Positions 2,269 to 57,388 of a DNA stretch of 64,000 nucleotides are shown in pieces. Both the position numbers and the translations under genes were made by a program. Numbering within the stretch: position 1 is the first letter of the stretch; every line of letters starts with the position of its first letter. The stretch spans positions 39,979 to 103,978 of the forward strand of contig CAVXKQ010000002.1 in NCBI GenBank assembly GCA_963762325.1. Reading direction: 5' to 3'. The notes beneath the pieces were generated by a model, which did not search any database, had not been told where the DNA came from, and was given only the letters and a program-made list of their open reading frames with translations. The DNA comes from an uncultured Solirubrobacterales bacterium (GTDB lineage: Bacteria; Actinomycetota; Thermoleophilia; Solirubrobacterales; 70-9).

Positions 2269-2334
2269 GTCGCATTTCAGTCACATCGCCGCCGCAATCC
2301 CGCTCCCCAGGCCACCAACCCGCGTCCTTTCAAT
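2269..2334 (-). repeat. 66-nt conserved upstream leader, copy A (upstream of the VOC gene)
   Basis: 51/66 ungapped identity to 3314..3379. It lies 33 nt upstream of the VOC ATG (2235). The shared ends on the gene strand are ATTGAAAGGACG...ATGCGAC. Confidence 0.6.
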
Positions 2335-2375
2335 TTGATGGAGGTTGGCTTGCTAGAGCGGGATGATCGGGTTGC

Positions 2376-3079: not shown

Positions 3080-3118
3080 ATTCTAGCTAAGAATGGCCAC
3101 AAGGGTAAAGCGACCGAG

Positions 3119-3304: not shown

Positions 3305-3313
3305 GAAAACACT

Positions 3314-3379
3314 GTCGCATCTCGGTCGCATCGCTGTCGCGATGCAGCTCCTAATGCGAACGACCCCCGTCCTTTCAAT
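3314..3379 (-). repeat. 66-nt conserved upstream leader, copy B (upstream of the small membrane protein)
   Basis: 51/66 identity to 2269..2334. It ends 9 nt upstream of ATG 3304. On the gene strand it contains the hairpin GCATCGC-GACA-GCGATGC. Confidence 0.6.
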
Positions 3380-3408
3380 ACGTAGGACACTGGGATCCAC
3401 TCCGCTCC

Positions 3409-4245
3409 CTATGACCTAACTAGGATCCCAGATGGGGTAGACCCAGTTTGGAGAGTGGCCGCCAGGCTCCGCTTGGTCGCGGCGTTGAAGAGGAGGCGCC
3501 GTTGCAAACGAGCAATGGCTTGGCGAGGCATCCCGTACATTTCGGTCATCGCGGATCCCGGAGCCGGAAGCGCGTCGGCTGGCACGCCAAGTTGATGCAG
3601 TTCATGTTCGAGCCTTTCTGGAAGCGACGGGAACACGGGAACCTTTTGACGATGTTTGGCAGCCCGCCAGTATTTGTGGAGTTTTGGTTCGGCGACTGCT
3701 AACCGAGCTTCACTTTGCTCCTCACTGATCCAACCTTTGGTCACCACCTCTTCAAGCGCGGCGGAGCATAAGAACAGTGCGAGAGCACCCTCGTCAGCAA
3801 AGAATTCCGCTTCGCGTTCCCTGTCTTCGGCGAGTTGTGTCTCACCTCGCTCGATGGCGCCCAGTTGCTTCTCCGTCGCGTCGATTAAGGCATTCTCGAA
3901 GCCGACGATTCGGATTGATGCGTCGATGTAGCGGAGAAGGAGAGCGCGGGAATCTTTGGAAGTGACTTTTAAAAGCCTGCTGTCCCATGATTCATACGCC
4001 ACCTCTACGGATTGGTCAAAGTCATAGCGGGGAGGGTCTTCAATGAGGCGCTCCTGCACGGTCTTCTCCCGGCTTGCCCGCCATCGCAGGATGGCTGGGA
4101 CCAAGGCCACGAGCGCGAACTCCTTCTTGACCGAACCAGCGCCGAACGCTGCCATGGCTAAGGCTAAGTCGGCCGCATCGCAGACAGCCTGTAGGCGGTC
4201 CCTCTCATCCCGAGCTGCGTCAAGCACGTCGACCTCAGTTGCCAT
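3409..4245 (-). CDS. hypothetical protein (no family recognised)
   Basis: 278-aa ORF with protein-like, helical/acidic composition and lower G+C than the window average. Confidence 0.55.
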   Translation of the reverse strand: MATEVDVLDAARDERDRLQAVCDAADLALAMAAFGAGSVKKEFALVALVPAILRWRASREKTVQERLIEDPPRYDFDQSVEVAYESWDSRLLKVTSKDSRALLLRYIDASIRIVGFENALIDATEKQLGAIERGETQLAEDREREAEFFADEGALALFLCSAALEEVVTKGWISEEQSEARLAVAEPKLHKYWRAAKHRQKVPVFPSLPERLEHELHQLGVPADALPAPGSAMTEMYGMPRQAIARLQRRLLFNAATKRSLAATLQTGSTPSGILVRS

Positions 4246-7768: not shown

Positions 7769-7841
7769 GGGCGGTTAGCTCAGTTGGGAGAGCACCTCCC
7801 TTACAAGGAGGGGGTCACTGGTTCGAGCCCAGTACCGCCCA
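7769..7841 (+). tRNA. tRNA-Val(TAC): tRNA-Val (anticodon TAC)
   Basis: Cloverleaf read by hand. Acceptor GGGCGGT/ACCGCCC, D arm GCTC..GAGC, anticodon stem CCTCC/GGAGG with loop CTTACAA, T arm ACTGG-TTCGAGC-CCAGT, discriminator A. No encoded CCA. Confidence 0.9.
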
Positions 7842-19243: not shown

Positions 19244-19317
<74 letters not shown>

Positions 19318-26330: not shown

Positions 26331-26858
26331 CTACTCGCCGGCGACCGGCGGAGCGGTCGGGTCGCCGCTCTCCTCGCCGAGACTCTCCCGCGCGATGTAG
26401 TCCTCGGCCAGCAGCAGGTTCTCCTTCGAGCGCTCGACCACGTTGAGCAGATCGCTCATCAGCGCGACCTCCTCCACCTGCTCCTTGACGAACCACTGCA
26501 GGAACTGCTCGGCCCGATAGTCCTTCAGCTCGCGCGCCAGCTCGAACAGGGCGAAGATCTCGTTGCTGACCCGCTTCTCCTGCTCGAGGGCCATCCGCAC
26601 CGGGGCGCTGCCGTCGGCGTAGGCGGTCTCCTGCGACTTGATGTCGGGGATGTGGACCCCCTCGCCGACGTCGAGCAGGTAGCGGATCATCATCATCGCG
26701 TGCTCGCGCTCCTCCAGCGCCTGGCGATAGAAGAAGCTGGCGAGACGGGGGAGGGTCGCGGCGTCGTAGTAGACGGCGGCTCCCACATATTGCTGCGAAG
26801 CGGCGAACTCGTTGGCGATCTGCTCGTTCAGCGCGTCGGCGAAAGACTTGTCAGGCAT
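26331..26858 (-). CDS. ferritin (non-heme, ferritin-like diiron)
   Basis: LNEQIANEFAASQQYVGAAVYY...FYRQALEEREHAMMMIRYL...EQEKRVSNEI fits the ferritin ferroxidase-centre pattern. Start at ATG 26858. Confidence 0.85.
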   Translation of the reverse strand: MPDKSFADALNEQIANEFAASQQYVGAAVYYDAATLPRLASFFYRQALEEREHAMMMIRYLLDVGEGVHIPDIKSQETAYADGSAPVRMALEQEKRVSNEIFALFELARELKDYRAEQFLQWFVKEQVEEVALMSDLLNVVERSKENLLLAEDYIARESLGEESGDPTAPPVAGE

Positions 26859-26936
26859 TCTCGGAGCTCCTTGTCGGCGGGGCGGCGGAGAGGCCAACGT
26901 AGCCGAAACGCCGAGTTCGGTCGGCCGAAGCGGCGC

Positions 26937-26950
26937 TTAGGGCGACCTGA
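26937..26950. promoter_or_regulatory. degenerate TTAGG..CCTAA-type box upstream of ferritin
   Basis: TTAGGGCGACCTGA lies ~80 nt upstream of the ferritin start. It is related to the five palindromes in the heme locus. This is a weaker match. Confidence 0.3.
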
Positions 26951-47577: not shown

Positions 47578-49440
47578 GTGAACCAGCTGCTGCGGATCGC
47601 CACCGCCGGCTCAGTCGACGACGGCAAGTCGACCCTGATCGGGCGCCTCCTGCACGACACCAAATCGATCTTCGAAGACCAGCTGAGCGCGATCGAGCAG
47701 ACCTCGGTCAAGCGCGGCGACGAGCAGACCGACCTGGCGCTGCTGACGGACGGCCTGCGGGCCGAGCGCGAGCAGGGGATCACGATCGACGTCGCCCACC
47801 GCTACTTCGCCACTCCCAAGCGCAAGTTCGTGATCGCCGACACCCCCGGTCACATCCAGTACACGCGCAACATGGTCACCGGCGCCTCGACGGCCAGCCT
47901 GGCGCTGCTGCTGGTCGATGCCCGCAAAGGCGTGCTCGAACAGACCCGCCGCCACGCCCTCCTCTCCTCGCTGCTGCGGGTGCCCCACCTGGTCCTCTGC
48001 GTGAACAAAATGGACCTCGTCGACTACGACCAGGAGGTCTACGAGGAAATCCGCCACGACTTCACCACCTTCGCCGCCAAGCTCGAGATCACCGATCTCG
48101 ATTTCGTCCCGATCTCGGCTCTGGAGGGCGACAACGTGGTCGAGCGCTCGGCCAACATGCCCTGGTTCGACGGGCAGCCGCTGCTGGGCCAGCTCGAGGA
48201 CGTCCACATCGCCTCCGATCGCAACCTGGTCGACAACCGCTTTCCCGTGCAGTACGTGATCCGCCCGCAGTCCTCCGAGCACCGCGACTACCGCGGCTTC
48301 TCCGGCTCGGTCGTCGGCGGCATCTTCAAGCAGGGCGACGAGGTGATGGCCCTGCCCTCGCGCAGGACCTCGACGATCGCCCAGATCGACACCCCCGACG
48401 GCGCCGTCGAGCAGGCCTTCCCGCCGATGGCGGTGACGATGCTGCTCGACGACGACCTCGACATCTCCCGCGGCGACATGATCTGCCGGCCCTCCAACCA
48501 GCCGACCGCCAACAGCCGTTTCGAGGCGATGATCTGCTGGTTCGACGAGACCTCCTCGCTGCGCACCGGGGCGCCGTACCAGCTCAAGCACACGACCCGC
48601 TGGATCGCCGCCGAAGTCGAGACGCTGCGCTACGAGCTCAACGTCGACACCCTGCACCGCGACCTCGGGGCGGAGACGCTCGAGGTCAACGACATCGGCC
48701 GGGTCTCGATCCACGCCACCTCGCCGCTCTTCTTCGACGAGTACCGACTCAACCGCACCACCGGCAGCTTCATCCTCGTCGACCCGGCGACGAACCTCAC
48801 CGTGGCGGCGGGGATGATCATCGGCGCCGGCGGCGAGCCGGCGGCCGTCGCCACCGAGTCGGTCGTCGCCGAGAACATCACCTTCCACCCCAGCAGCCTC
48901 TCCCGCGAGGAACGCCGCGAGGCCCTGGGGACGACCGGCGCGACGATCTGGATGACCGGCCTCTCCGGCTCCGGCAAGTCGACGATCGCCGCCGCGCTCG
49001 AGCACACCCTGGTCAGCGGCGGCCGCAACGCCTACATGCTCGACGGCGACAACCTCCGCCACGGGCTCAACGCCGACCTCGGTTTCAGCGAGGAGGACCG
49101 GGCCGAGAACGTGCGCCGGGTCGGGGAGGTCTCGAAGCTGTTGGCCGAATCCGGCGTGGTCGCGATCGCCTCCCTGGTCAGCCCGTTCCGGGATGCGCGC
49201 GACAAGGTCCGCGCCGCCCATGAGGCAGCCGGCATTCCCTTCTACGAGGTCTTCGTCGACACGCCGCTGGAGGAGTGCGAACGGCGCGACCCGAAGGGGC
49301 TCTACGCGAAGGCGCGGGCAGGCGAGATCACCGACCTGACCGGGGTTGGGAGCCCTTACGAGGCGCCGGAGCGCCCGGAGTTGACGACGGATCCGGATCT
49401 GGAGAGCGCTGTGCGCCAGGTCCTCGCTCTGCTGGGCTAG
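47578..49440 (+). CDS. cysNC: bifunctional sulfate adenylyltransferase subunit 1 / adenylylsulfate kinase
   Basis: GTPase motifs GSVDDGKST, DTPGH and NKMD. The C-terminal APS-kinase P-loop is GLSGSGKST. GTG start. Confidence 0.9.
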   Translation: MNQLLRIATAGSVDDGKSTLIGRLLHDTKSIFEDQLSAIEQTSVKRGDEQTDLALLTDGLRAEREQGITIDVAHRYFATPKRKFVIADTPGHIQYTRNMVTGASTASLALLLVDARKGVLEQTRRHALLSSLLRVPHLVLCVNKMDLVDYDQEVYEEIRHDFTTFAAKLEITDLDFVPISALEGDNVVERSANMPWFDGQPLLGQLEDVHIASDRNLVDNRFPVQYVIRPQSSEHRDYRGFSGSVVGGIFKQGDEVMALPSRRTSTIAQIDTPDGAVEQAFPPMAVTMLLDDDLDISRGDMICRPSNQPTANSRFEAMICWFDETSSLRTGAPYQLKHTTRWIAAEVETLRYELNVDTLHRDLGAETLEVNDIGRVSIHATSPLFFDEYRLNRTTGSFILVDPATNLTVAAGMIIGAGGEPAAVATESVVAENITFHPSSLSREERREALGTTGATIWMTGLSGSGKSTIAAALEHTLVSGGRNAYMLDGDNLRHGLNADLGFSEEDRAENVRRVGEVSKLLAESGVVAIASLVSPFRDARDKVRAAHEAAGIPFYEVFVDTPLEECERRDPKGLYAKARAGEITDLTGVGSPYEAPERPELTTDPDLESAVRQVLALLG

Positions 49441-49760
49441 GGCTTGCGAACGATTACCGTGCGGCCGTCGGAGAGTTGGTAGACCGTCCCGATCGGCTCG
49501 CCTCGGCCGACGACTTTCTCGTTCGGCTTCAGCTCCACCTCTTTGATCTTTTGGTCTTTGTCGGCGACGACCGCATCGGCCGGCCGCGTCTTCTCGGTGC
49601 TCGCCTTGCCGGTGATCGCCTCGGTGAGGTCGAGGGAGGAGAGGGCGGCGAGGAGGAAGGCGACGGAGAGGACGATGCCGAGGTCGAAGAGGTTGACGAG
49701 GCCGTCGAGCGGGTCGCCGGCGCGGTCGTCGCGGCTGCGGGCGCGCGGGGTGACCTTCAT
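49437..49760 (-). CDS. ExbD/TolR-like small membrane protein (DUF2149-like)
   Basis: 107 aa with a single TM carrying an embedded Asp (GLVNLFDLGIVLSVAFLLAAL). Its ATG overlaps the ExbB-like stop (ATGA). The family name is recalled, not searched. Confidence 0.55.
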   Translation of the reverse strand: MKVTPRARSRDDRAGDPLDGLVNLFDLGIVLSVAFLLAALSSLDLTEAITGKASTEKTRPADAVVADKDQKIKEVELKPNEKVVGRGEPIGTVYQLSDGRTVIVRKP

Positions 49761-50416
49761 GGCGCGACCGCCCAGTGGCTGTGGGGGAGCGGGTGGCCGT
49801 TGCCCGCGGGGGCGGTGAGGCTGGCGGCGACGTACTCGACGTCGGAGTAGTCCTGGGCGTAGAGGCGGTCGCGGACGAGGGAGATCGCGAAGGCGAAAGC
49901 GCCGATCATCAGGCCTGCGACGGTGACGCTGAAGGCGACCCGGAGGTTCTCGGTCAGGGTGGCGACGTCGCCGTCGGCGAGGCCGGCGAGGGCCGGGGAG
50001 AGCGGGATCAGGGTGCCCATCAGGCCCAGGGCCGGGCCCATGCGGACGAGGATTCGGGTGCGCTCGAGGCGGCGCAGCGAGAGGTAGTCGTACTCGGCCA
50101 GGCGCTTGGCGAGCCGGGCCTCGGAGTGGGGTCGAGCGCATTGCTCGACGATGCCGGCGAGCGCGTCCTCCATCTGCCGGTTCCAGGCGAAGGGCAGCAG
50201 CGCCGCCAGCGCCTCGTCGGGCATCCCGGCGGCAAGCCGGCCGCGGCACTCCTCGACCGCGCGCTCCAGGCCCCAGAGGCTGCGCTGGCGACGGCGGCGC
50301 ACCTCCACCAGCAGCGAGCCGGCTTCGACGACGACGATCGCCAGTGCCGCCACGGTGAGGACCAGGACCGGCACCAGCAGCGCCTCGGAGACGTCGAACA
50401 GCAGCTGCTCGATCAC
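49757..50416 (-). CDS. MotA/TolQ/ExbB proton-channel family protein
   Basis: 219 aa. It has an N-terminal TM and a C-terminal RMGPALGLMGTLIPLSPALAGL...NLRVAFSVTVAGLMIGAFAFAI, the conserved ExbB/TolQ helix pair. Confidence 0.75.
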   Translation of the reverse strand: MIEQLLFDVSEALLVPVLVLTVAALAIVVVEAGSLLVEVRRRRQRSLWGLERAVEECRGRLAAGMPDEALAALLPFAWNRQMEDALAGIVEQCARPHSEARLAKRLAEYDYLSLRRLERTRILVRMGPALGLMGTLIPLSPALAGLADGDVATLTENLRVAFSVTVAGLMIGAFAFAISLVRDRLYAQDYSDVEYVAASLTAPAGNGHPLPHSHWAVAP

Positions 50417-50435
50417 GACGCCGACTCTCCAGGCG

Positions 50436-50462
50436 CTTTTGTAGCCCAGAGGGCGACAAAAG
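50436..50462. repeat. REP-like palindromic element, copy 5 (short)
   Basis: CTTTTGTAGCCC-AGA-GGGCGACAAAAG. It lies between the PKD-protein stop and the exbB-like start. Confidence 0.65.
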
Positions 50463-50474
50463 TAGTCCGGCCTC

Positions 50475-51695
50475 TCATCGGAGCAGGTTCCTGGTCTCGA
50501 TCAGGGCACCGGCTCCGAACAGGCCGAGGGTGGCGAGCAGGCCCCAGGCGGCGCCGGGGATGCCGCTGCCGTCGCCGTCGCCCTCGAGCTGTCCGCTGCG
50601 CGCCCCAGCCTGCTTCGGCTTCGCGGAGGGCGGAGTGTCGACAGTGGCGCTGACGAGTTCGCCGACCACGCGCTCACCGGTGGCGGATCCCTGCTCGGCC
50701 TGAGGGGTGGGGCGATCGGCTGTGCCCCGTCGGACACACCGCCTGCGGCCGTGTTGAGTGTCCGACGGGGCACAGCCGATCGCCCTCTCGGCTGGGTCGA
50801 GAGGGTTGGGATCTGGGGCATCGCCGCCTCCTGCCCCGGGCGGACCGGCGGCACCGTGGTTGGGGGCAGTGGCGCTGACGTCGCGGCCGCCTCCCTTACG
50901 GTCTGGGCCAGCAATCGGCGCTCCGACCTGGATCGTCACCACGGCTGAAGCGCCGGTGTCGTCGCCTTCGCTGGTGACGCCGACGACGACGTCGTAGCTG
51001 CCGCGCTCGGCGAAGCTGTGAGTTGCTTCCGGGCTGGTGGTGGAGGCGCCGTCGTCGAAGTACCAGGAGTAGGTGAGCTGCTCGCCGGCTCCGGCTCCCT
51101 CGACGATCACGCTGAAGTTGACCGGTTTGCCGGGGCGGGTTCGCAGGGCTGAGGCTCGGGCCCGCACCTGCAGGCGCGAGCCCTTGTGGAGGACGATGGC
51201 GATGCCCTGCGGGGCCTCGAAGCTGTCCTCGGCGTTGAGGTCTTCCGGGCCCGCGCTGGGTCGCAGGAAGCCGGTGGCGGTGGCGGTCGCGTAGACGAGT
51301 GGCGAGCCTGCGGCGAAGGCGTCCGGGTCGAGTGCCTGGTGGCGGCTCAGCGATACCGCGCCGCCTGCCGGGCGCTGGACCTCGAGATAGGAGAAGCCAT
51401 AGGGGTCGGCGCCGGCTGCGTCGAGAATCGCCGCCAGGGAGAAGCCGCTGACCGTCGCGGTGCTCTCGCCGCTGGAGGAGCGCAGCACGTAGGAGCCGCT
51501 GGCGTCCTCCGAGCCGGCCAACGCGGCGAGGGCAAGCGCCTGCTGGGCGCCTCCGGGGGAGACCACCGTCACCTGGGCGGCGTCGGCGCGGGCGGCGGTC
51601 GCCCAGGGCGCGGCCAGCGACGCCAGGACCGCCAGCGCGGAGGCGGCGGCGAGCGCCGTGATCAGCCCGCGGTCGTGAAGGAGACCGTGGCGCAT
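50475..51695 (-). CDS. secreted PKD-domain protein with Pro/Gly-rich linker and C-terminal membrane anchor
   Basis: Signal peptide LITALAAASALAVLASLAAPWATAARA. The PKD pattern is VNFSV...YSWYFDDGAS..ATHSFAERGSYDVVVGVT. The C-terminus is GIPGAAWGLLATLGLFGAGALIETRNLLR. Confidence 0.65.
   Translation of the reverse strand: MRHGLLHDRGLITALAAASALAVLASLAAPWATAARADAAQVTVVSPGGAQQALALAALAGSEDASGSYVLRSSSGESTATVSGFSLAAILDAAGADPYGFSYLEVQRPAGGAVSLSRHQALDPDAFAAGSPLVYATATATGFLRPSAGPEDLNAEDSFEAPQGIAIVLHKGSRLQVRARASALRTRPGKPVNFSVIVEGAGAGEQLTYSWYFDDGASTTSPEATHSFAERGSYDVVVGVTSEGDDTGASAVVTIQVGAPIAGPDRKGGGRDVSATAPNHGAAGPPGAGGGDAPDPNPLDPAERAIGCAPSDTQHGRRRCVRRGTADRPTPQAEQGSATGERVVGELVSATVDTPPSAKPKQAGARSGQLEGDGDGSGIPGAAWGLLATLGLFGAGALIETRNLLR
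50710..50785. repeat. perfect 28-bp inverted repeat inside the PKD-protein coding region
   Basis: The arm GGGCGATCGGCTGTGCCCCGTCGGACAC (50710..50737) pairs with GTGTCCGACGGGGCACAGCCGATCGCCC (50758..50785). The loop is 20 nt. Confidence 0.85.
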
Positions 51696-52912
51696 CCGAA
51701 GTCGGTGCCGGGGGCGTAGAAGCCGGCGAAGGTCGAGGTGGCGGTGCCGGAGGGAATCGCTCCCGGCACCCGTTCGTAGGTGAAGCTGTGGCCGCTGGCG
51801 CTGATCGCGGTGGCGCGGGAGAGATCGAGGTTGATCAGCACCTGCCGCTGCGGCGCCCCGCCCGACTCGGCGATCGAGAAGATCGCCCGCGATTTGGCGC
51901 CGGCGATCTCGATTTCCGGTTCGGCGGTCGTGAGATCGATCCCGTGACCGCTGTAGAGGAAGCGGACGGCGCCGCCGAAGCGGACCAGGGCGCTGTCGTC
52001 GGCGGGGTCCGCCGGGTTGGCGCCGGCGTCGTGCCAGCCCCCGGCCGCGAAGGGGAAGTGGAAGCCGTAGCTGAGCGCCGCCGAGGCGCCGGACAGCAGC
52101 ACCGGCGGGTCGGCCGTGGCGCCGCCGGAGACGCTCGTCCCCTCGCCGGTGCCGATGTAGCGGATGAAGGACTCGCGCACCTGCCAGTCGATCGAGGCGG
52201 CGACGACGTCGGTCGCGCTTAGCGGGCGCGGCGCCGGCACCAGCGGCTCCTCCGGGGCGGGACCGGCGCCGCTGGGCAGTGGGCAGGCGGTCGATTTCCG
52301 GGCTGCCTCGCCGGGGGAGGAGGGACTACCGCCGGCCGCGCCGCCACCGCCGCCGCGGGTCAGACCGGCGAGATCGGAGGCGAGGGTGCCGAAGCGCCGC
52401 GGGGCCAGCGCGTCCAGGCCCAGCCTGGCGGCGAGCGTACGGGCGCCGCCGCGGGTCAGCTTCAGGCGCAGGCCGTCGAGACGCACGCTGCCCGTCGCCG
52501 CGTCTATCTCTCGCCTGCCGCCGGGGAGAACCTTGAAGAGGTCGATCTCCTCGCCGCCGAGCTCGGCCTCGACCAGCGAGCGATCGCCGAGCAGCAGCCT
52601 GAGCTTGGTCAGGCGCGCCCTGCCGCCGTCGGCGCTGGTCAGCGAGATGCCGCCGCGGTGGCGCAGCAGGGTCGTGCTCGAGCCGGCAAGCCCGGCGGCG
52701 ACCGGCAGGGAGACCCTGCGGCCGCCGCCGCTCCCGGGTTTGATCGGGGTGATGCGAACGCCCTGCTCACGCAGGGCGTTCGCCGCCGGGCCGTCCAGCG
52801 TCAGCTTCGTCTCCCCGTCGGCGCCGAGCGCCTGCGCGGGGAGGGCGATGGCGGCGGCGGCGATCGCCACCGTCGCGAAACCGCCGAGCCGGCTGGTCGG
52901 CCTCCGCCTCAT
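51662..52912 (-). CDS. HtaA-domain (heme-binding, cell-surface) protein, paralog 1
   Basis: Signal peptide, then IDWQVRESFIRYIG...VRFGGAVRFLYSGHGIDLT...FAGFYAPGTDFG, which is the HtaA-domain pattern. Confidence 0.7.
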   Translation of the reverse strand: MRRRPTSRLGGFATVAIAAAAIALPAQALGADGETKLTLDGPAANALREQGVRITPIKPGSGGGRRVSLPVAAGLAGSSTTLLRHRGGISLTSADGGRARLTKLRLLLGDRSLVEAELGGEEIDLFKVLPGGRREIDAATGSVRLDGLRLKLTRGGARTLAARLGLDALAPRRFGTLASDLAGLTRGGGGGAAGGSPSSPGEAARKSTACPLPSGAGPAPEEPLVPAPRPLSATDVVAASIDWQVRESFIRYIGTGEGTSVSGGATADPPVLLSGASAALSYGFHFPFAAGGWHDAGANPADPADDSALVRFGGAVRFLYSGHGIDLTTAEPEIEIAGAKSRAIFSIAESGGAPQRQVLINLDLSRATAISASGHSFTYERVPGAIPSGTATSTFAGFYAPGTDFGCATVSFTTAG

Positions 52913-54121
52913 TCGGTTTCCACCGAGATCGTCACCGGGTCCAGCTCCTGCCCCGCCGGGTAGGTGGAGCCGAAGGCGGCGGCTCCAGCGGCGGTCAGTT
53001 TCGCCGGGACGGCGCTCCAGGTGATCGTCTTCCCGCCCGCCGAGTAGGTCGGCGTGACGGCGCTGGCGTCGAGCGTCGCGAACTCGACGTCGGCGGTCGG
53101 CACGGCCGGCTGGTCGGTGCAGCTCATGCCTGCCGGGGTGTCGATGTCGTAGACGGAGTCGAGCGCGATCGACGAGTCGGCCCCGTCGATCGTCAGCTCG
53201 AGGTTCGAGAGCTTGACTTCGATGATGCAGTGGCCGGGCTTGGCGAAGACGACGTTGCCCTGCGTCTGCACCGTCATCCTGTCGGTGGCGCCGCCGAGGC
53301 CCTTTTCATAGCTGCCGCCGGCGTTCGGGAAGCTGAAGAACGATCCCGCTTCGGTCAGCGTCCCGGTCGAGGTCGCGCCTTCGCCGGTGCTGATCGTGCC
53401 GATCGACGAGGGCGGTCCCTGCTGGCCGAGGACGTAGGCGCGCCAGCTCGCCAGCACGCCCCAGTCGGCGTCGCCGCCGACGATCGCCTTGGCGGCGGCG
53501 TGAGACGGTTTCGGAGCCTCCGGATCCTTCGGCCCCGGCGTGATCGGGGCTGCGGGAATGCTGGTAGTGGTCCGCGCCTGCAGCCAGACCATGCCGACGC
53601 CCTTCTTGACCAGGGTGCTGTCCGAGGCCGAGCTTCTGCTTGAGGAGGGTCGCCGCCGCGGTGGTGAGCTGCAGCTTGCCGTCCCTGAGGACCGCCGAGT
53701 CGCCGCTGAGGACCGGCGTCGCGCCGAGCTTGAAGACGGGGATCTCGGCGTCGCCGAGCTTGCCGACCAGGGTGCCCGCCCCGAGGTCGAAGCGAATCGC
53801 GGTCAGCGCCAGCGAGCGTTTGCCGCGCTTGAAGCTGAGGCTGCCGGCGCTGGTCGCCGCCGGCTGCGCCCCGGTCGTCAGCTCGAGGATCGGCAGGTTC
53901 AGCCTGCCTCCCTGGCCGCTGACGCCGGGGCCGGCGGCGAGCTTCACGCCCTGGCCGCTGAGGGTGCGCCCTTTGCTGTGGTTGGCGGCGACGATCGTCG
54001 CCTCGCCCTGGCCGCTGGCGGCGCTGGCCGGACCCGCCAGGGCGGCGGTCATCGCGGCGGTGGCGCTGAGGGCGAGCAGGCTGGCCGCCAGCCTGCTCCT
54101 TCTCGCTTCGTTCGAACTCAT
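52909..54121 (-). pseudogene. HtaA-domain protein, paralog 2, with a 1-nt frame disruption at ~53622-53623
   Basis: The N-terminal half is ORF 53306..54121 (signal peptide; ..LLKQKLGL). The C-terminal half is ORF 52909..53592 (..ADWGVLASWRAYVLG..AFGSTYPAGQELDP). The junction reads KLGL/DSTLVKK, parallel to RLGLDALAP in paralog 1. Confidence 0.65.
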
Positions 54122-54183
54122 TCTCGAAAGGTCTCCTTGTTTCTCTGCGCACGAGGTGCGTTGGACTCGACGGTAGCCTTGAA

Positions 54184-54197
54184 TTAGGGCACCCTAA
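54184..54197. promoter_or_regulatory. TTAGGG-CA-CCCTAA palindrome (candidate iron/heme-responsive operator)
   Basis: A 14-bp palindrome with perfect 6-bp arms, 63 nt upstream of the htaA-like start at 54121. Confidence 0.55.
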
Positions 54198-54222
54198 TAA
54201 ATCCACACTAACAAAGTAGGAA

Positions 54223-54236
54223 TTAGGGTGTCCTAA
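54223..54236. promoter_or_regulatory. TTAGGGTGTCCTAA palindrome (candidate operator)
   Basis: Exact reverse complement of the box at 57346..57359. It overlaps the ATPase stop codon and lies 102 nt upstream of the htaA-like start. Confidence 0.55.
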
Positions 54237-55116
54237 TGCCTCCCTCGGAGAGCCAGGCGACGTGCAGGGCGGTGCGCGCGTCGTGCGCGGTCAGGCGCGC
54301 GTCGGCGCCCCAGACCTGGGCCAGGCGCTCGCTGCTCAGAACCTCTTCGGCGCTGCCGGCCGCGACCGTGCGCCCGGCCGAGACGGCCACCACGCTGTCG
54401 GCGATCGCCGCCGCGAGGGCGAGGTCGTGGACGACCAGCAGCACCGCCAGGCCTTCGTCGACGAGGTCGCGGAGCAGGCCGGCGACGCCGATCGTGGCGC
54501 CGAGGTCGAGCTGTGAGGTCGGCTCGTCGGCGATCAGCACCGGCGCCTCCTGGGCCAGCCCGATCGCGATCTGGACCCGCTGCAGCTCGCCCCCCGAGAG
54601 GGTCGTCAGCGCCCGCTCGGCGAACTGGCTGACGCGGGCCCGCTCCAGCGCTCGCTCGATTCCCGCCTGGTCCTCGGCGGTCAGCCGGCGCAGCGGGCGC
54701 AACCGCGCGGAGCGGCCGATCGTCACCGCTTCGCGGACGCTGACGCCGGCCGGCACCGGCATCCGCTGCGGCACGAAGGCGCGCAGCTCGGCCAGCTCGC
54801 GCCCCCGCATCGCGCTCACCTCGCGCCCGGCCCAGCGAGCGCTGCCCGCGGCCATCCGCTGCAGCCCCGAGACGGCCCGCACCAGCGTCGACTTCCCCGC
54901 CCCGTTGGGCCCGACCACCGCGACCAGCTCACCAGCTTTCAGACTGAGGTCGGCCCCTCGCAGGATCGGCGTTCCCGCGATCTCCACCTCGATCCCGCGT
55001 GCCTCGAGCAGCTGAGCCGGAGGAGGGGGTCCCTCCGGCGGGCCTCCAGCAACGCCCATAGGGCCGTGCGCCCGACGGAGGGACCCCCTCCTCCGGCCCT
55101 TTTCCTCGGAGGTCAC
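54223..55116 (-). CDS. ABC transporter ATP-binding protein (HmuV/FecE-like)
   Basis: Walker A GPNGAGKST, signature LSGGELQR, Walker B VLIADEPTS. The start is GTG 55116 or ATG 55059. Either way the N-terminus is encoded by the 55016..55097 hairpin. Confidence 0.8.
   Translation of the reverse strand: MTSEEKGRRRGSLRRAHGPMGVAGGPPEGPPPPAQLLEARGIEVEIAGTPILRGADLSLKAGELVAVVGPNGAGKSTLVRAVSGLQRMAAGSARWAGREVSAMRGRELAELRAFVPQRMPVPAGVSVREAVTIGRSARLRPLRRLTAEDQAGIERALERARVSQFAERALTTLSGGELQRVQIAIGLAQEAPVLIADEPTSQLDLGATIGVAGLLRDLVDEGLAVLLVVHDLALAAAIADSVVAVSAGRTVAAGSAEEVLSSERLAQVWGADARLTAHDARTALHVAWLSEGGIRTP
55016..55097. repeat. perfect 22-bp inverted repeat at the permease/ATPase gene junction
   Basis: The arm GCCGGAGGAGGGGGTCCCTCCG (55016..55037) pairs with CGGAGGGACCCCCTCCTCCGGC (55076..55097). 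The 38-nt loop contains GCCCATAGGGC. Confidence 0.85.
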
Positions 55117-55118
55117 GG

Positions 55119-56103
55119 TCAGACCGCCTTCCGCAGGAGCCAGAGGAACAGGGGCACGCCGAGGAGGACCATGAAGGGGCCGACGGGCATCTCGATTGGG
55201 GCGCGCAGGGTGCGGGCCAGGGTGTCGCCGGCGGCGAGCAGGGCGGCGCCGCCGAGCGCCGAGGCGGGGACGACGAAGGTGTGGCTGGAGGTGCCGCCCG
55301 GCCATCCGCACGACGTGGGGGACGACCAGGCCGAGGAAGCCGAGCAGGCCGGCGATCGCCGCCGAGGCGGCCGCCAGCAGCGCCGCCGCGATCCCGGCCC
55401 CGAGCCGGATCAGCTGCGGGCGCGAGCCGAGCGAGGCGGCGACGTCGTCGCCGAGGGCGAGGCGGTCGAGCGGCCGGATCAGGCAGGCGGCGACGAGGAA
55501 GCCGACCGCGAAGTAGGGCCAGATCGTCTCCATCTCCTGCCAGCCGCTGGAGGTGAGGCCGCCGGCGATGAAGAAGATCGCCGAGGGCGCCCGCTCCGGG
55601 TAGGCGGCCAGCAGCCCCGTGGTCCCCGCCGTGAACAGCGAGAGCATCGCGATCCCGGCCAGGATCACCTTGCCGGTGCTGCCGCGGTTGCGGCCCGACC
55701 AGGCGAAGGCGAAGACCAGGGTCGCCGCCAGCAGGCCGAAGAAGAGCGCGCCGACCGGCAGCAGCGCGATCGAGCCGGGGAAGAGGATGATGATCAGGAT
55801 CGCCCCGAAGCCGGCGCCGCCGGTGACCCCGATCACGTCGGGCGAGGCGAGCGGGTTGGCCAGCGCTCCCTGCAGGATCGCCCCGGCGATGCCGAGCGCG
55901 GCGCCGACGATCAGCGCCTCGACCGTGCGCGGCAGCCGCAGCGCCTCGACGATCTGCTGGTCGGTGCCGCCGCCGCCCTTGCCGAGCAGGATGTCGATCA
56001 CCTCGGCGGCCGGCACCTTGACCGCGCCCAGCGCCAGCGAGGCGATCGTGGCGAGGGCGAGGGCGACGAGCAGCGCCGCGAAGACCAGGGTCCGGCGCGC
56101 CAA
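55119..56103 (-). pseudogene. FecCD-family ABC permease (HmuU-like) with a 1-nt frame disruption at ~55293-55300
   Basis: TTG start at 56103. The sequence runs ..ALRLPRTVEALIVGAALGIAGAILQGALANPLASPDVIGV.. to ..VVPHVVRMAG. The true C-terminus GGTSSHTFVVPASALGGAALLAAGDTLARTL..LWLLRKAV* is in the next frame. Confidence 0.7.
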
Positions 56104-56108
56104 ACCGG

Positions 56109-56995
56109 TCAGTTCTGCAGGTAGATCGCGACGGACCTTGCGGATCGTGCGGGCGATGTCGGTGCCGGCCTGCAGCAGCGAGTTGTCGACCGAGACGTAG
56201 ACCCGGCCGGTCCGGGCCGCCGTGGTGCTGGCCCAGGCAGGGTTGGCCCGCAGGTACTCGGTCAGGCTGGGGATGTCGTCGGCATTGGCGTGGGGGACGG
56301 CGATGATGACGTCCGGGTTTTCGGCGACCACGACTTCGTCGGAGATCCGCTCGAAGCCCGAGCTGGACTCGACGCCGCCGGTCAGCAGCCTGCCGCCGGC
56401 CTTGGTGACGATGTCGCCGCCCCAGCTGTTGGGCAGGAAGGTGAAGGGGGTGCGGCCGACGCCGAGGATCAGCATCACCTTCGGGTGCCTGCGGATCCCG
56501 GTGTTGGCGGCTTCGACCTGCTTGCGCATCGACTGCAGGAGGTCGCGGGCGTAGTGCTTGCGGCCGACGATCGTGCCGATCTTGAAGGTGTCGGCGAAGG
56601 CGCCGTCGATCGAGCGCGGGTCGTGGAGGACGACGTCGATTCCCAGGCTCCCCATCGCCTGGTTCCCTTTCGCCCAGGTCTTGGAGGAGAAGACGAGGTC
56701 GGGGTCCAGCGAGGCGAGCTGCTCGAGGTTGGGCCCGTTGGGGTGGGAGAGCGGCAGCTTCGGGACGCCCTTCAGCTTCGGCGAGAAGCGTTCGTTGCCG
56801 CCCAGCGTCTCGCCGATCGCCGACCGGGGTGACGCCGAGCTTGGCCAGGGTGTTGGCGGCGAACGGGGTCAGGGCGACGATCCGCTGCGGCGGCGCCGCC
56901 TGGCTCGCGGCCGGCAGGCAGAGCGCGACCGCGAGCGCCAGCAGCGCCGCCCCGGCGCCCCTTGCCCGCGGCCGGCGGGGAAGGCCCCAGCTCAC
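56109..56995 (-). pseudogene. periplasmic-binding-protein (HmuT/FecB-like, heme/siderophore type) with frame disruptions at ~56818 and ~56127-56130
   Basis: Lipoprotein-like signal ALLALAVALCLPAASQA, then RIVALTPFAANTLAKLGVTPVG in one frame and IGETLGGNERFSPKL..PNLEQLASLDPDLVFSS..DVIIAV.. in another. An alternative frame gives ..AIYLQN* with a TGA 5 nt before the permease TTG. Confidence 0.6.
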
Positions 56996-57291
56996 GCCGG
57001 CACCCTCGCGTCGATCACGTCGTAGTTGCGGACCTCGCTGCCGTGGGCGAGCTCGCCGTCGGCGTGGCGGTGGCTCATCTTGAAGAGGTCGCTGTTGACC
57101 CAGGCCTTGAACGCCTCGTCGCTCTGCCAGCGGCTGAGCACGACGTACTCGCCGTCGCGGTCGCGCCGCAGCAGCTCGAAGCTGGCGAAGCCCTCGGCTT
57201 TGTGGACGTGGCTCTCCCGCTCCAGGAACGCGCGCTCGAAGGCCTCCCGCCTCTCCTCATGCACGTGGACGACGTTCATCACCAGATACAA
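56992..57291 (-). CDS. IsdG/MhuD-type heme-degrading monooxygenase (ABM domain)
   Basis: (M)YLVMNVVHVHE...VLSRWQSDEAFKAWVNSDLFKMSHRH parallels S. aureus IsdG ..[26 protein letters not shown], with the catalytic Asn/Trp/His positions. TTG at 57291 sits 7 nt after AAGGAG. Its stop overlaps the binding-protein GTG (GTGA). Confidence 0.75.
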   Translation of the reverse strand: MYLVMNVVHVHEERREAFERAFLERESHVHKAEGFASFELLRRDRDGEYVVLSRWQSDEAFKAWVNSDLFKMSHRHADGELAHGSEVRNYDVIDARVPA

Positions 57292-57345
57292 GGGCCCGCT
57301 CCTTTGAAGATGGAGGGCGCCCGACGTCCCCATCGGCCGTGGAGC

Positions 57346-57388
57346 TTAGGACACCCTAATTAGGTTGACCTAACTTAGGGTACCCGAA
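57346..57388. promoter_or_regulatory. three abutting 14-bp TTAGG-N4-CCTAA palindromes (candidate metalloregulator operator array)
   Basis: TTAGGACACCCTAA (57346), TTAGGTTGACCTAA (57360) and TTAGGGTACCCGAA (57375). They lie 55-97 nt upstream of the heme oxygenase start. The middle box plus 5 nt matches 15/19 positions of the DtxR/IdeR consensus TTAGGTTAGCCTAACCTAA. Confidence 0.6.

What the first reader, a model, noticed from the sequence alone, without database searches (positions are those of the whole stretch)
49437..57388. Heme-acquisition supercluster that embeds a MotA/ExbB-type proton channel and an ExbD-like partner next to HtaA-type proteins
Two co-directional minus-strand operons are each preceded by TTAGG-N4-CCTAA palindromes.

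Operon 1 runs: IsdG/MhuD-type heme oxygenase (57291..56992), HmuT-like binding protein, FecCD permease, ATPase. Its junctions are GTGA or near-overlaps.

Operon 2 runs: two paralogous HtaA-domain proteins, a PKD protein with a C-terminal membrane anchor, a 219-aa MotA/TolQ/ExbB channel, and a 107-aa protein joined by an ATGA overlap. The single TM of that last protein carries an Asp (..VNLFDLGIVLSVAFLLAAL..), the hallmark of ExbD/TolR/MotB stator partners.

Established knowledge: HtaA, HmuTUV and a heme oxygenase form the Corynebacterium-type heme system. ExbB/ExbD energise TonB-dependent outer-membrane uptake in diderms. This window has no TonB and no TonB-dependent receptor, and the host looks like a high-G+C actinobacterium.

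I do not know of a described heme system in which an ExbB/ExbD-like motor is operonic with HtaA-type proteins. My inference is a proton-motive-force-driven step in heme capture, cell-wall transit or receptor recycling.

Caveat: four single-nt frame disruptions lie in this locus.
Basis: partly seen in the sequence, partly recalled or inferred. Interest (0 to 1): 0.75.

Follow-up and report, generated by a model that had tools for sequence, protein, structure and literature searches.

The report
Heme-uptake cluster with ExbB-like motor pair
A soil actinobacterium with a Gram-positive-type envelope keeps a proton-channel pair related to ExbB/ExbD inside its heme-uptake genes; the same pair sits, unexplained, in the heme operon of gut Bacteroides, and in other actinobacteria it is built into tungstate/molybdate-type importers, so it is probably a general energy-coupling accessory of nutrient uptake that needs no outer membrane.

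Summary
On the minus strand of 49437-57388 lie an IsdG/HmuQ-like heme-degrading protein, a HmuTUV-type ABC importer, two HtaA proteins, a PKD protein with a C-terminal membrane anchor, a MotA/ExbB-family protein and a DUF2149 protein with an invariant membrane Asp. TTAGG-N4-CCTAA operators precede both operons.

The host is a Solirubrobacterales bacterium. Sixteen relatives carry the same arrangement with intact genes.

- The ExbB-like/DUF2149 pair is homologous to HmuU/HmuV of the Bacteroidota hmuYRSTUV heme operon (32% and 27% identity). The heme link therefore has a precedent, although HmuUV function is unknown.
- The PKD protein, ExbB-like protein and DUF2149 form a portable module. In 25 other Actinomycetota loci the module sits inside TupABC-like oxyanion importer operons, so it is not heme-specific.
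- The HtaA and TupA-like binding proteins lack membrane anchors. The PKD protein is anchored.

My best reading, which is an inference, is a proton-driven motor that acts through the PKD stalk protein on anchorless binding proteins feeding ABC importers.

In this window the importer and HtaA1 carry four 1-nt insertions and a 104-nt palindromic insertion. These are either gene decay or assembly errors.

Verdict: new variant of a known kind, interest about 0.62.

The parts
57346..57388 (.). Three tandem 14-bp palindromes, TTAGG-N4-CCTAA. Putative iron/heme-regulon operator of operon 1.
   Evidence: Seen. The same triple site lies upstream of the ABM gene in L001-L009.
56992..57291 (-). IsdG/MhuD/HmuQ-type heme-degrading ABM monooxygenase, 99 aa, TTG start preceded by AAGGAG.
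   Evidence: Pfam ABM, E 8e-19. NCBIfam HmuQ, 63 bits, below the cut-off. 82% identical to the L001 ABM protein. Sequence read.
56109..56995 (-). HmuT-like heme-binding protein of the ABC importer (Peripla_BP_2). Broken by two 1-nt insertions, at about 56819 and about 56125.
   Evidence: Pfam assignment of the orthologues.
55119..56103 (-). FecCD-type permease (HmuU of the ABC importer). Broken by a 1-nt insertion at about 55299 (GG to GGG).
55005..55108 (.). 104-nt palindromic insertion with 39-nt arms that are 85% complementary. It lies at the permease/ATPase junction. It is absent from relative L002 and occurs once in the window.
54223..55117 (-). ABC ATPase (HmuV of the ABC importer). Its start is uncertain because of the insertion.
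   Evidence: tblastn at 75% identity to the L001 ATPase. Sequence read.
54184..54236 (.). Two TTAGG-N4-CCTAA palindromes 39 bp apart. Operator of operon 2.
   Evidence: The same pair lies upstream of HtaA in L001-L010.
52909..54121 (-). HtaA1: signal peptide, N-terminal domain, then a HtaA/CR heme-binding domain. Broken by a 1-nt insertion at about 53622; 403 aa when repaired. No membrane anchor.
51662..52912 (-). HtaA2, paralogue of HtaA1, 416 aa. Intact, with no membrane anchor.
50475..51695 (-). PKDp, a type-I membrane protein. In order: signal peptide, SUOX/PruR-like domain (aa 40-175), PKD domain (aa 184-257), disordered stalk of about 120 aa rich in Pro, Gly and Ala, and a C-terminal TM helix (aa 381-404).
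   Evidence: It lies directly upstream of the MotA-like gene in 51 of 77 loci.
49757..50416 (-). ExbB-like proton-channel subunit (MotA/TolQ/ExbB family), homologue of Bacteroidota HmuU.
49437..49760 (-). DUF2149 protein, homologue of Bacteroidota HmuV. A single N-in TM helix with invariant Asp26 and a small C-terminal extracytoplasmic domain. Its start overlaps the stop of the ExbB-like gene (ATGA).
26331..26950 (-). Ferritin gene with a one-mismatch TTAGG-N4-CCTGA site 40 nt upstream. Probably a member of the same regulon.

Best explanation
**What it is.** This is the heme-acquisition locus of a Solirubrobacterales bacterium (Thermoleophilia, Actinomycetota). It has two operons under a shared palindromic operator that marks an iron/heme regulon.
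- Operon 1 encodes an IsdG/HmuQ-type heme-degrading enzyme and a HmuTUV-type ABC heme importer.
- Operon 2 encodes two secreted, anchorless HtaA (CR-domain) heme-binding proteins, followed by a three-gene accessory module.

**The module.** It consists of:
- PKDp, a type-I membrane protein with a SUOX/PruR-like domain, a PKD domain, a long disordered stalk and a C-terminal TM helix;
- an ExbB-like channel protein;
- a DUF2149 protein with an ExbD-like TM helix that carries an invariant Asp.

The last two are the actinobacterial counterparts of HmuU/HmuV of the Bacteroidota hmuYRSTUV operon.

**How it most likely works (inferred).**
1. The ExbB-like and DUF2149 proteins form a proton-driven ExbBD-type motor in the cytoplasmic membrane.
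2. The motor acts on the TM helix of PKDp.
3. The stalk and distal domains of PKDp reach into the cell wall.
4. There they engage the anchorless ligand-binding proteins: HtaA here, TupA-like proteins in other lineages.
5. This retrieves those proteins or forces ligand hand-off to the ABC importer.

The module would thus be a Ton-like energiser that needs neither an outer membrane nor TonB.

**Shown:** gene content, family membership, homology to HmuUV, conserved synteny, the shared operator, and the modular reuse with a second importer type.

**Inferred:** motor assembly, coupling to PKDp, and the step that is energised.
For: **Family membership and homology to HmuUV**
- Against HmuU the ExbB-like protein shows 32% identity, E 2e-33. 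Against HmuV the DUF2149 protein shows 27% identity, E 4e-12. Both comparisons used a Bacteroidota locus that encodes HmuY, a TonB-dependent receptor, CobN, HmuT, MotA_ExbB and DUF2149.
- The hmu operon, including these two genes, is induced 7- to 200-fold by iron limitation in three Bacteroidota species (PMC10434189, PMC11681262).

**Motor features**
- The ExbB-like protein aligns over its full length to solved ExbB (7ajq/6ye4, E 0.006). The TM2 GT and TM3 T positions are matched and are invariant or at least 90% conserved in the family.
- Asp26 of DUF2149 is invariant. hhalign aligns it with D25 of ExbD.
- The two genes overlap by 4 nt here and in the Bacteroidota locus.
- Single gene products that carry both PF01618 and PF09919 exist.

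**Synteny (77 loci)**
- DUF2149 lies directly downstream of the ExbB-like gene in 63 loci.
- PKDp lies directly upstream in 51 loci.
- HtaA is nearby in 17 loci, 15 of them with FecCD.
- A TupA-like binding protein is nearby in 28 loci. Of these, 25 have the permease and 25 have PKDp. None has HtaA.

**Regulon**
- The operator lies upstream of the ABM, HtaA, HugZ-like, DUF2470 and ferritin genes.
- It also lies directly upstream of PKDp (L001, L008, L025, L028) or of the ExbB-like gene (L014, L031, L024, L027).

**Anchoring.** Of 31 HtaA-family proteins, none has a C-terminal TM helix or an LPXTG motif. Of 36 TupA-like proteins, one has a C-terminal hydrophobic stretch and none an LPXTG motif. 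PKDp has a C-terminal TM helix in 48 of 57 cases.

**HtaA heme ligands.** The Tyr and His positions of the HtaA domain align with those of the C. glutamicum and C. diphtheriae CR structures.
Against: - There is no experimental evidence for any member of this subfamily. HmuU/HmuV function is itself unknown (PMC12094164, PMC12583661).
- The similarity of DUF2149 to ExbD is confined to the TM helix (hhalign probability 6.5%). No ExbD or TolR Pfam or PDB hit was found.
- The interaction of PKDp with the motor rests on gene order alone. Bacteroidota use a different third protein, the polytopic HmuT, and 7 FhuF-linked loci have no PKDp.
- I found no adapter domain shared by the HtaA and TupA-like proteins.
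- In this window the importer genes and HtaA1 are frame-broken, so the system may not be working here.
- A published survey regards incomplete Ton systems in Actinobacteria as probably non-functional (PMC12204202).
Confidence: 0.5

Rival explanations
1. The ExbB-like/DUF2149 pair is itself a channel or transporter component, with or without a third membrane protein. It would move heme, iron or protons across the cytoplasmic membrane rather than act as a force-generating motor. This is the role proposed for HmuTUV in P. gingivalis.
For: [quoted passage not shown]
- The pair occurs on its own next to a FhuF-like ferric-reductase gene in 7 loci.
Against: - The locus already encodes a complete ABC importer for the substrate.
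- The same module serves chemically unrelated substrates, heme and tungstate/molybdate-type oxyanions. This argues against a substrate-specific pore.
- All characterised members of the MotA/ExbB family that I know of conduct ions to do mechanical work (own knowledge).
Confidence: 0.15
2. The module is a signalling device. The PruR/SUOX-like domain of PKDp senses a ligand or the loaded binding protein, and the motor pair transduces or gates that signal. The model would be TonB-dependent surface signalling, or PruR-DcpA.
For: The N-domain of PKDp resembles the periplasmic pterin-binding regulator PruR (7kou, 7kos, 7kom; TM about 0.55) and the SUOX fold.
Against: - The operon encodes no sigma/anti-sigma pair, kinase or cyclase.
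- The module sits between the binding-protein gene and the permease genes in Tup-type loci.
- The fold match is weak (best E 2e-3).
Confidence: 0.1
3. The adjacency has no functional meaning. The pair would be a vestigial or unrelated envelope system (Tol-like, or a remnant Ton system) that happens to lie next to heme genes.
For: PMC12204202 calls incomplete Ton systems in Actinobacteria likely non-functional.
Against: - All three module genes are intact here, although the neighbouring genes are broken.
- The order HtaA, PKDp, ExbB-like, DUF2149 is conserved down to about 57% identity.
- The operator lies directly upstream of the module in several loci.
- There is strong sequence constraint: 19 invariant positions in DUF2149.
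- The module is independently embedded in a second importer type.
- Bacteroidota provide a precedent.
Confidence: 0.08
4. In this particular strain the heme system is decaying. The importer and HtaA1 are pseudogenes, and only the module and HtaA2 remain functional, perhaps serving another partner.
For: - Four 1-nt insertions and a 104-nt palindromic insertion lie within 53.6-56.8 kb.
- There are none in about 12 kb of flanking conserved genes.
- Only one of the four insertions lies in a homopolymer run.
Against: - The source is probably a metagenome-assembled contig, and local assembly errors cannot be excluded without the reads.
- The broken genes are still 75-96% identical in protein sequence to intact orthologues.
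Confidence: 0.3

Closest known systems
HmuU/HmuV of the Bacteroidota hmuYRSTUV heme-uptake operon (P. gingivalis PG1555/PG1556; B. thetaiotaomicron BT0491/BT0492)
   Same: - The same two protein families, a MotA_ExbB subfamily and DUF2149, at 32% and 27% identity.
- The same gene order and the same 4-nt overlap.
- The same TM motif with Asp (NLFD).
- Both are embedded in an iron-regulated heme-acquisition operon.
   Different: - The Bacteroidota partners are the HmuY hemophore, the TonB-dependent receptor HmuR, the CobN-like dechelatase HmuS and the polytopic HmuT. None of these is present here.
- Here the partners are HtaA proteins, a PKD stalk protein, an ABC importer and an IsdG-type enzyme.
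- The host belongs to an order whose described member C. woesei is Gram-positive.
ExbB-ExbD-TonB (Ton) and TolQ-TolR-TolA systems of diderm bacteria
   Same: - A MotA/ExbB-family channel with three TM helices.
- A small partner with one N-in TM helix that carries an essential-type Asp.
- A third single-pass protein with a long Pro-rich spacer.
- Genetic linkage to high-affinity nutrient uptake, including heme.
   Different: - There is no TonB, no TonB-dependent receptor and no outer membrane.
- The partner is DUF2149, not the ExbD/TolR family, and it has a much smaller external domain.
- The stalk protein has the opposite topology, with a C-terminal anchor and the N-terminus outside, and has SUOX-like and PKD domains instead of a TonB C-terminal domain.
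Corynebacterium HtaA/HtaB-HmuTUV-HmuO heme system
   Same: - HtaA (CR) domains with the Tyr/His heme-ligand positions.
- A HmuTUV-type ABC importer.
- An operator that resembles the iron-dependent DtxR/IdeR box.
   Different: - The HtaA proteins here lack the C-terminal TM anchor of C. diphtheriae HtaA/HtaB (PMC11725911).
- The heme-degrading enzyme is IsdG/HmuQ-type, not HmuO.
- The operator is 14 bp rather than 19 bp.
- The operon has three extra genes (PKDp, ExbB-like, DUF2149).
TupABC tungstate/molybdate ABC importers
   Same: In 25 related Actinomycetota loci the same PKDp, ExbB-like and DUF2149 module lies between a TupA-like binding-protein gene and the TupB-like permease and ATPase genes, with Mop/TOBE regulators nearby.
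   Different: This type is not present in this window. It shows that the module is portable between importers.

Membership tests
[quoted passage not shown] | Profile match above the curated threshold | tested here: met
   36.1 bits against a cut-off of 22.9, E 6e-9.
[quoted passage not shown] | ExbB-like arrangement (TM1, cytoplasmic helical domain, TM2-TM3) with conserved Thr in TM2 and TM3 | tested here: met
   Full-length alignment to solved ExbB 7ajq/6ye4. T135 is invariant and T165 is at least 90% conserved in 48 diverse members. Equating these with E. coli ExbB T148/T181 is my own knowledge.
[quoted passage not shown] | 5:2 assembly with the partner and ion-driven activity | not testable with these tools
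   No multimer prediction was available.
ExbD/TolR family | Sequence match to the ExbD/TolR profile or to solved ExbD/TolR | tested here: not met
   Pfam gives only DUF2149. No PDB sequence hit with the single sequence or with the profile.
ExbD/TolR family | A single N-in TM helix with a conserved Asp near the cytoplasmic end | tested here: met
   D26 is invariant in 62 of 62 homologues. hhalign aligns it with D25 of ExbD (E 0.006, low probability). The N-terminus is rich in Arg and Lys (sequence).
Bacteroidota Hmu system (hmuYRSTUV) | HmuU and HmuV homologues, adjacent and overlapping | tested here: met
Bacteroidota Hmu system (hmuYRSTUV) | HmuY hemophore, TonB-dependent HmuR, CobN-like HmuS and polytopic HmuT | tested here: not met
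   None of these is in the locus. tblastn with HmuR finds nothing in the window. PKDp is unrelated to HmuT in architecture.
Corynebacterium-type HtaA-HmuTUV heme system | HtaA/CR domain with the heme-ligating Tyr and partner His | tested here: met
   Pfam HtaA, E 3e-31 and 1e-15. Alignments to 6jsb, 6js9 and 8smu show the SWRAY/SFIRY Tyr and the GH His aligned. Heme binding itself was not tested.
Corynebacterium-type HtaA-HmuTUV heme system | Surface anchoring of HtaA/HtaB by a C-terminal TM helix | tested here: not met
   None of the 31 HtaA-family proteins in these loci has a C-terminal hydrophobic segment or an LPXTG motif. The reference for this feature is PMC11725911.
Corynebacterium-type HtaA-HmuTUV heme system | HmuTUV ABC importer (Peripla_BP_2, FecCD, ABC_tran) | tested here: met
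   In the window the genes carry three frameshifts and one insertion.
IsdG/MhuD/HmuQ heme-degrading monooxygenases | ABM fold and family-level profile match | tested here: inconclusive
   ABM, E 8e-19. HmuQ scores 63 bits against a cut-off of 130. Asn (VMNVV), Trp (SRWQS) and His (MSHRH) are present at the expected spacing (sequence; the catalytic triad is my own knowledge).
Ton system | TonB protein and a TonB-dependent receptor | tested here: inconclusive
   Nothing was found in the locus or in 30 window ORFs scanned. The rest of the genome is not available.
Zorya-type anti-phage defence (ZorA/ZorB) | Match to defence-system profiles | tested here: not met
   No PADLOC hit for any of the three module proteins.

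The most novel reading that the evidence does not exclude
The PKD stalk protein, the ExbB-like channel and DUF2149 together form a Gram-positive counterpart of the Ton system. It would be a proton-driven motor with no outer membrane and no TonB. Through a wall-spanning type-I stalk protein it would pull on, or retrieve, anchorless high-affinity binding proteins (HtaA for heme, TupA-like proteins for oxyanions) and so energise ligand hand-off to ABC importers. If so, HmuU/HmuV of Bacteroidota would not simply power the outer-membrane receptor HmuR, as currently drawn, but would carry out an inner-membrane-proximal step common to both envelope types.
Probability: 0.25. Interest if true: 0.85.

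Novelty: new variant of a known kind. Interest (0 to 1): 0.62.

Why it matters
**An open question in a well-studied operon.** ExbB/ExbD-type motors are understood as devices that carry energy to an outer membrane, and homologues in Actinobacteria have been dismissed as probable remnants (PMC12204202). HmuU/HmuV sit in one of the most strongly iron-induced operons of human gut and oral Bacteroidota, and their function is unknown (PMC12094164, PMC12583661).

**What this locus adds.** The same pair is conserved, co-regulated and operon-embedded in actinobacteria of an order whose described member C. woesei is Gram-positive. It occurs next to HtaA heme receptors and, elsewhere, inside tungstate/molybdate-type ABC importer operons. 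This gives a comparative argument that the pair does something that needs neither TonB nor an outer-membrane receptor.

**Where it could be tested.** Culturable carriers include Conexibacter, Nocardioides and Aeromicrobium.

**If the motor reading is right.** It would be a new way of coupling proton-motive force to ABC-type uptake through a thick cell wall.

Tried and rejected
1. **Exact-sequence look-up of the window's own ExbB-like protein** found no record. I used relatives instead.
Both prediction jobs then went to PKDp, so the DUF2149 fold and the complex were not modelled.
3. **PDB searches with DUF2149**, as a single sequence and as a profile, gave only chance-level hits.
4. **A CobN-like HmuS next to the actinobacterial pairs.** The 1,190-aa neighbour in the FhuF-type loci looked from its sequence like methionine synthase; I did not scan it against any family library.
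5. **A shared adapter domain in HtaA and TupA-like proteins.** The HtaA N-domain profile hits only HtaA proteins.
6. **HmuT of Bacteroidota as a PKDp equivalent.** It is a polytopic membrane protein without similar architecture.
7. **Zorya-like defence.** There are no PADLOC hits.
8. **Promoter and terminator scan of the locus.** Uninformative: 0 promoters, and terminators at the chance level.
9. **A DtxR-family regulator gene in the window.** None among the 20 further ORFs tested.
10. **Riboswitches.** Rfam finds only two tRNAs in the window.
11. **The 104-nt palindromic insertion as a repeated mobile element.** It occurs once in the window and in none of the 84 loci.

Full report
**1. What is in the sequence**

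The window has about 70% G+C. Nine genes lie on the minus strand between 49437 and 57388. Pfam assigns the following.

| Coordinates | Pfam family | E-value |
|---|---|---|
| 49437-49760 | DUF2149 | 9e-15 |
| 49757-50416 | MotA_ExbB | 6e-9 |
| 50475-51695 | PKD | 1e-12 |
| 51662-52912 | HtaA | 1e-15 |
| 52909-53592 | HtaA | 3e-31 |
| 56992-57333 | ABM | 8e-19 |

- The best NCBIfam match of the ABM protein is the heme-degrading protein HmuQ, followed by IsdG-type heme oxygenases. All of these are below their cut-offs.
- The stretch 54223-56995 reads as long ORFs in two frames. tblastn with the intact proteins of a relative resolves it into a Peripla_BP_2 binding protein, a FecCD permease and an ABC ATPase.
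- The MotA-like and DUF2149 genes overlap by ATGA.
- The ABM gene and the binding-protein gene overlap by GTGA.
- The palindrome TTAGG-N4-CCTAA occurs six times in the window when one mismatch is allowed, against 0.2 expected. Five of the six lie in the two promoter regions of this locus.

**2. Host and conservation**

- The closest homologues are named Solirubrobacterales or Thermoleophilia.
- Conexibacter woesei, a member of that order, is described as Gram-positive (PMC3035278).
- Two relatives were read in full. Their ExbB-like proteins are 93% identical (L002) and 80% identical (L001) to the one in the window.
- Both carry the same gene order with every gene intact: ABM, binding protein, FecCD, ATPase, HtaA (one or two genes), PKD protein, MotA_ExbB, DUF2149. 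The flanking genes are also the same: PHP and biotin carboxylase on one side, cysNC, cysD and cysH on the other.

**3. The frame disruptions**

- Aligned with L002, the window carries four single-base insertions:
  - about 56819 and about 56125, in the binding protein;
  - about 55299, in the permease (GG to GGG);
  - about 53622, in HtaA1.
- It also carries a 104-nt insertion at the permease/ATPase junction (55005-55108). Its 39-nt arms are 85% complementary. It is not repeated elsewhere in the window or in the fetched loci.
- About 12 kb of conserved flanking genes show no frameshift. HtaA2, the PKD protein, the ExbB-like protein and DUF2149 are intact.
- The clustering points to real decay of the importer in this strain, or to a locally poor assembly. 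The sequence alone cannot decide between the two.

**4. The pair is HmuU/HmuV**

- A full-text search for DUF2149 led to the Bacteroidota hmuYRSTUV heme operon. There hmuU is annotated as a MotA/TolQ/ExbB protein and hmuV as a DUF2149 protein. Both are strongly induced by iron limitation in P. gingivalis, P. intermedia and B. thetaiotaomicron (PMC10434189, PMC11681262).
- A HMMER search of 1.84 billion representative proteins with the window's ExbB-like protein found a compact family. It has 739 clusters at E below 1e-10.
- One member of that family, 31% identical to the query, lies in a human-microbiome contig. That contig encodes, in order, HmuY, a TonB-dependent receptor, a 1,463-aa CobN-like protein, a 233-aa membrane protein, MotA_ExbB and DUF2149. 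The last two genes overlap by 4 nt.
- Pairwise, the window proteins are 32% identical to that HmuU (E 2e-33) and 27% identical to that HmuV (E 4e-12). The NLFD motif in the TM helix is shared.
- The association of this pair with heme acquisition therefore has a precedent. Its function does not:
  - One recent paper draws HmuU/HmuV as powering the outer-membrane receptor HmuR (PMC12583661).
  - A recent review says the roles of HmuT, HmuU and HmuV remain unclear, and suggests inner-membrane transport (PMC12094164).

**5. How ExbB/ExbD-like is the pair?**

*The 219-aa ExbB-like protein*
- It aligns over its whole length with solved ExbB (7ajq/6ye4, E 0.006).
- The alignment of 48 diverse family members has an invariant GxxLGLMGTLIPL motif in TM2 and an AFxTTVxGL motif in TM3. 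These include T135 and T165.
- Those two threonines fall on the two ExbB threonines that I recall as lining the site of the ExbD Asp (own knowledge).

*DUF2149*
- It has an Arg/Lys-rich N-terminus, one TM helix and a small C-terminal domain.
- Asp26 is invariant in 62 of 62 homologues, and 19 positions are invariant overall.
- hhalign against E. coli ExbD aligns only the TM helix, with Asp26 on D25, and with low confidence.
- There is no Pfam ExbD hit and no PDB sequence relative.

I therefore treat DUF2149 as working like ExbD in the membrane. I do not file it as a member of the ExbD/TolR family.

**6. Neighbourhood survey**

A scan of one genome per species, using the conserved TM2 motif, found at least 597 loci. 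The 80 most similar were kept, and all are Actinomycetota. I called genes using third-position G+C and clustered the products. I then built family profiles and annotated representatives.

Counts over the 77 loci with a called ExbB-like gene, including the window:

| Feature | Loci |
|---|---|
| DUF2149 directly downstream | 63 |
| PKD protein family (PKDp) directly upstream | 51 |
| HtaA genes nearby | 17 (15 with FecCD, 16 with PKDp) |
| TupA-like PBP_like_2 binding protein nearby | 28 (25 with BPD_transp_1 permease, 25 with PKDp, 0 with HtaA) |
| FhuF_C-like gene nearby | 7 (0 with PKDp) |

- The loci with HtaA include all of the closest relatives.
- In the second context the gene order is: binding protein, PKDp, ExbB-like, DUF2149, permease (one or two genes), ATPase. 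MerR-plus-TOBE/Mop regulators lie nearby. This is a tungstate/molybdate-type importer, although the scores are below the equivalog cut-offs.
- In the FhuF-linked loci the pair is not preceded by PKDp.
- In a further small group the gene upstream of the pair encodes a prenyltransferase-like toroid protein.

The PKDp, ExbB-like and DUF2149 genes thus form a portable module that serves at least two unrelated ABC importers.

**7. The regulon**

In the heme-type loci the 14-bp palindrome is found upstream of several kinds of gene:
- the ABM operon, usually as three tandem copies;
- the HtaA genes;
- HugZ-like genes (CREG/PNPOx domain plus DUF2470);
- DUF2470-only genes;
- in the window, 40 nt upstream of a ferritin gene.

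It also lies directly upstream of PKDp in L001 and L008. In L025 and L028 (two cultured Conexibacter species) it lies upstream of PKD-domain proteins that occupy the same position directly upstream of the ExbB-like gene but did not cluster with PKDp. It lies directly upstream of the ExbB-like gene in L014, L031, L024 and L027. It is absent upstream of the module genes in the Tup-type loci.

This places the module in an iron/heme regulon in these lineages. The site looks like the IdeR/DtxR box with the central five bases missing (own knowledge of that consensus). I did not find the regulator gene in the window.

**8. The PKD protein**

- The AlphaFold2 model, built with 57 homologues, has two confident domains: residues 40-175 and the PKD domain. 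These are followed by about 120 disordered residues and a C-terminal helix at 381-404.
- The N-domain modelled alone has pLDDT 87 and pTM 0.82. Its matches are consistent but weak.

| PDB match | Score |
|---|---|
| Molybdopterin-binding domain of sulfite oxidase | E 2e-3, TM 0.57-0.62 |
| YedY | TM 0.62-0.65 |
| Small periplasmic pterin-binding proteins PruR | TM about 0.55 on both lengths |

- The N-domain has no cysteine, so it cannot be a sulfite-oxidase-type molybdenum enzyme (sequence).
- The topology is signal peptide, ectodomains, stalk, TM anchor and a short basic tail. This is the mirror image of TonB.

**9. Anchorless binding proteins**

- Repairing the frameshift gives a 403-aa HtaA1. 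It is 27% identical to HtaA2 over the full length (E 7e-12).
- Both HtaA domains align to the C. glutamicum and C. diphtheriae CR structures, with the Tyr and His positions conserved.
- Unlike C. diphtheriae HtaA/HtaB, which are held by C-terminal TM helices (PMC11725911), none of the 31 HtaA-family proteins in these loci has a C-terminal hydrophobic segment or an LPXTG motif.
- Of the 36 TupA-like proteins, one has a C-terminal hydrophobic stretch and none an LPXTG motif.
- PKDp has the C-terminal TM helix in 48 of 57 cases.
- PKDp is thus the only membrane-tethered extracytoplasmic protein encoded in operon 2.

**10. Mechanism**

*Shown*
- An iron/heme-regulon locus that encodes heme binding, import and degradation.
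- An embedded HmuUV-type pair with the hallmarks of an ion-conducting ExbBD-type complex.
- A third protein, conserved in position, with a stalk and a membrane anchor.
- Reuse of the module with another importer.

*Inferred*
1. The pair forms a proton-driven motor.
2. The motor acts on the TM helix of PKDp.
3. PKDp engages the anchorless binding proteins in the wall.
4. This retrieves them or forces ligand release to the ABC importer.

I give this reading about 0.5. The sub-claim that the pair takes part in heme acquisition here is higher. The sub-claim about the exact step that is energised is much lower.

*Rivals*
- A channel or transport role for the pair itself.
- A signalling role through the PruR-like domain.
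- Meaningless adjacency.
- Independently of all of these, real decay of the importer in this strain.

**11. Comparison and novelty**

- The locus is a composite. It combines a Corynebacterium-type HtaA/HmuTUV system, without anchors and with an IsdG-type enzyme, with a Bacteroidota-type HmuUV pair and a lineage-specific stalk protein.
- I found no paper that describes HtaA together with an ExbB-like motor, or that gives a function for HmuUV.
- One survey regards incomplete Ton systems in Actinobacteria as probably non-functional (PMC12204202).
- I rate the locus as a new variant of a known kind: an ExbBD-type motor and HmuUV module in a new envelope type with new partners.
- Interest is about 0.62. 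A specialist would find a conserved, regulon-embedded ExbB-like motor in importer operons of a Gram-positive lineage surprising. It also gives a comparative handle on the open question of what HmuU/HmuV do.
- Everything about mechanism is still inference.

Noticed in passing
window 55005-55108: A 104-nt palindromic insertion at the FecCD/ATPase junction, with 39-nt arms that are 85% complementary and 26 nt between them. It is absent from the close relative L002, where the two genes overlap. It occurs once in the window and is not found in any of the 84 fetched loci. It could be a small hairpin-type mobile element or an assembly artefact.
   Followed up: partly
window 53600-56830: All four frame disruptions are 1-nt insertions relative to L002 and cluster within 3.3 kb, in the binding protein, the permease and HtaA1. 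About 12 kb of conserved flanking genes and the downstream module genes have none. Only one of the four lies in a homopolymer run. Whether this is pseudogenisation or local assembly error is unresolved.
   Followed up: partly
window 26331-26950: A ferritin gene (Pfam Ferritin, E 3e-36) has a one-mismatch copy of the TTAGG-N4-CCTAA palindrome 40 nt upstream. This suggests that the operator controls iron storage as well as heme uptake.
   Followed up: partly
loci L001-L031, positions listed: The 14-bp palindrome marks a wider regulon in Solirubrobacterales. It lies upstream of HugZ-like genes (CREG/PNPOx plus DUF2470), DUF2470-only genes, extra HtaA-family genes, and stand-alone PKD/ExbB-like/DUF2149 operons in cultured Conexibacter species (L025, L028). 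It looks like an IdeR/DtxR box that lacks the central 5 bp. The regulator was not identified.
   Followed up: partly
window 56995-56109; L001:3847-4752; the TupA-like genes in loci such as L038:6826-8673: The substrate-binding proteins of the ABC importers, like the HtaA proteins, have cleavable-looking signal peptides. Most have no lipobox cysteine and no TM anchor, which is unusual for an organism with a single membrane. It raises the question of how they are retained, or whether these bacteria have an additional outer layer.
   Followed up: partly
L077-L079 and L081, gene directly upstream of the ExbB-like gene (for example L079:8155-9984): In a small group of Actinomycetota/Thermoleophilia loci the pair is preceded not by PKDp but by a protein of about 600 aa. 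That protein has a prenyltransferase/squalene-cyclase-like alpha-alpha toroid domain, a Pro/Thr-rich stalk and a C-terminal TM helix. In these loci the ExbB-like and DUF2149 ORFs as I called them are longer. This could be another 'stalk protein plus motor' variant.
   Followed up: no
L013, L016-L019, L021, L023, L026, L027, L029: In Solirubrobacterales loci that lack PKDp the ExbB-like/DUF2149 pair stands alone. In about half of them a divergent FhuF_C-like (2Fe-2S ferric-reductase-type) gene lies next to it. A DUF1697 gene, or a roughly 1,190-aa gene that looks like methionine synthase from its sequence, is also often nearby. A one-mismatch operator site lies upstream of the ExbB-like gene in L024 and L027.
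   Followed up: no
window 1-4000: The first 4 kb have clearly lower G+C (0.57-0.61) than the rest of the window (about 0.70) and contain only short ORFs. This could be foreign or non-coding DNA. Rfam finds only two tRNAs in the whole window, at 7769-7841 and 19244-19317.
   Followed up: no
window 40180-41940: A 586-aa protein with RTX calcium-binding repeats (HemolysinCabind) lies downstream of the sulfate-assimilation genes. It is conserved at 75% identity in L001.
   Followed up: no
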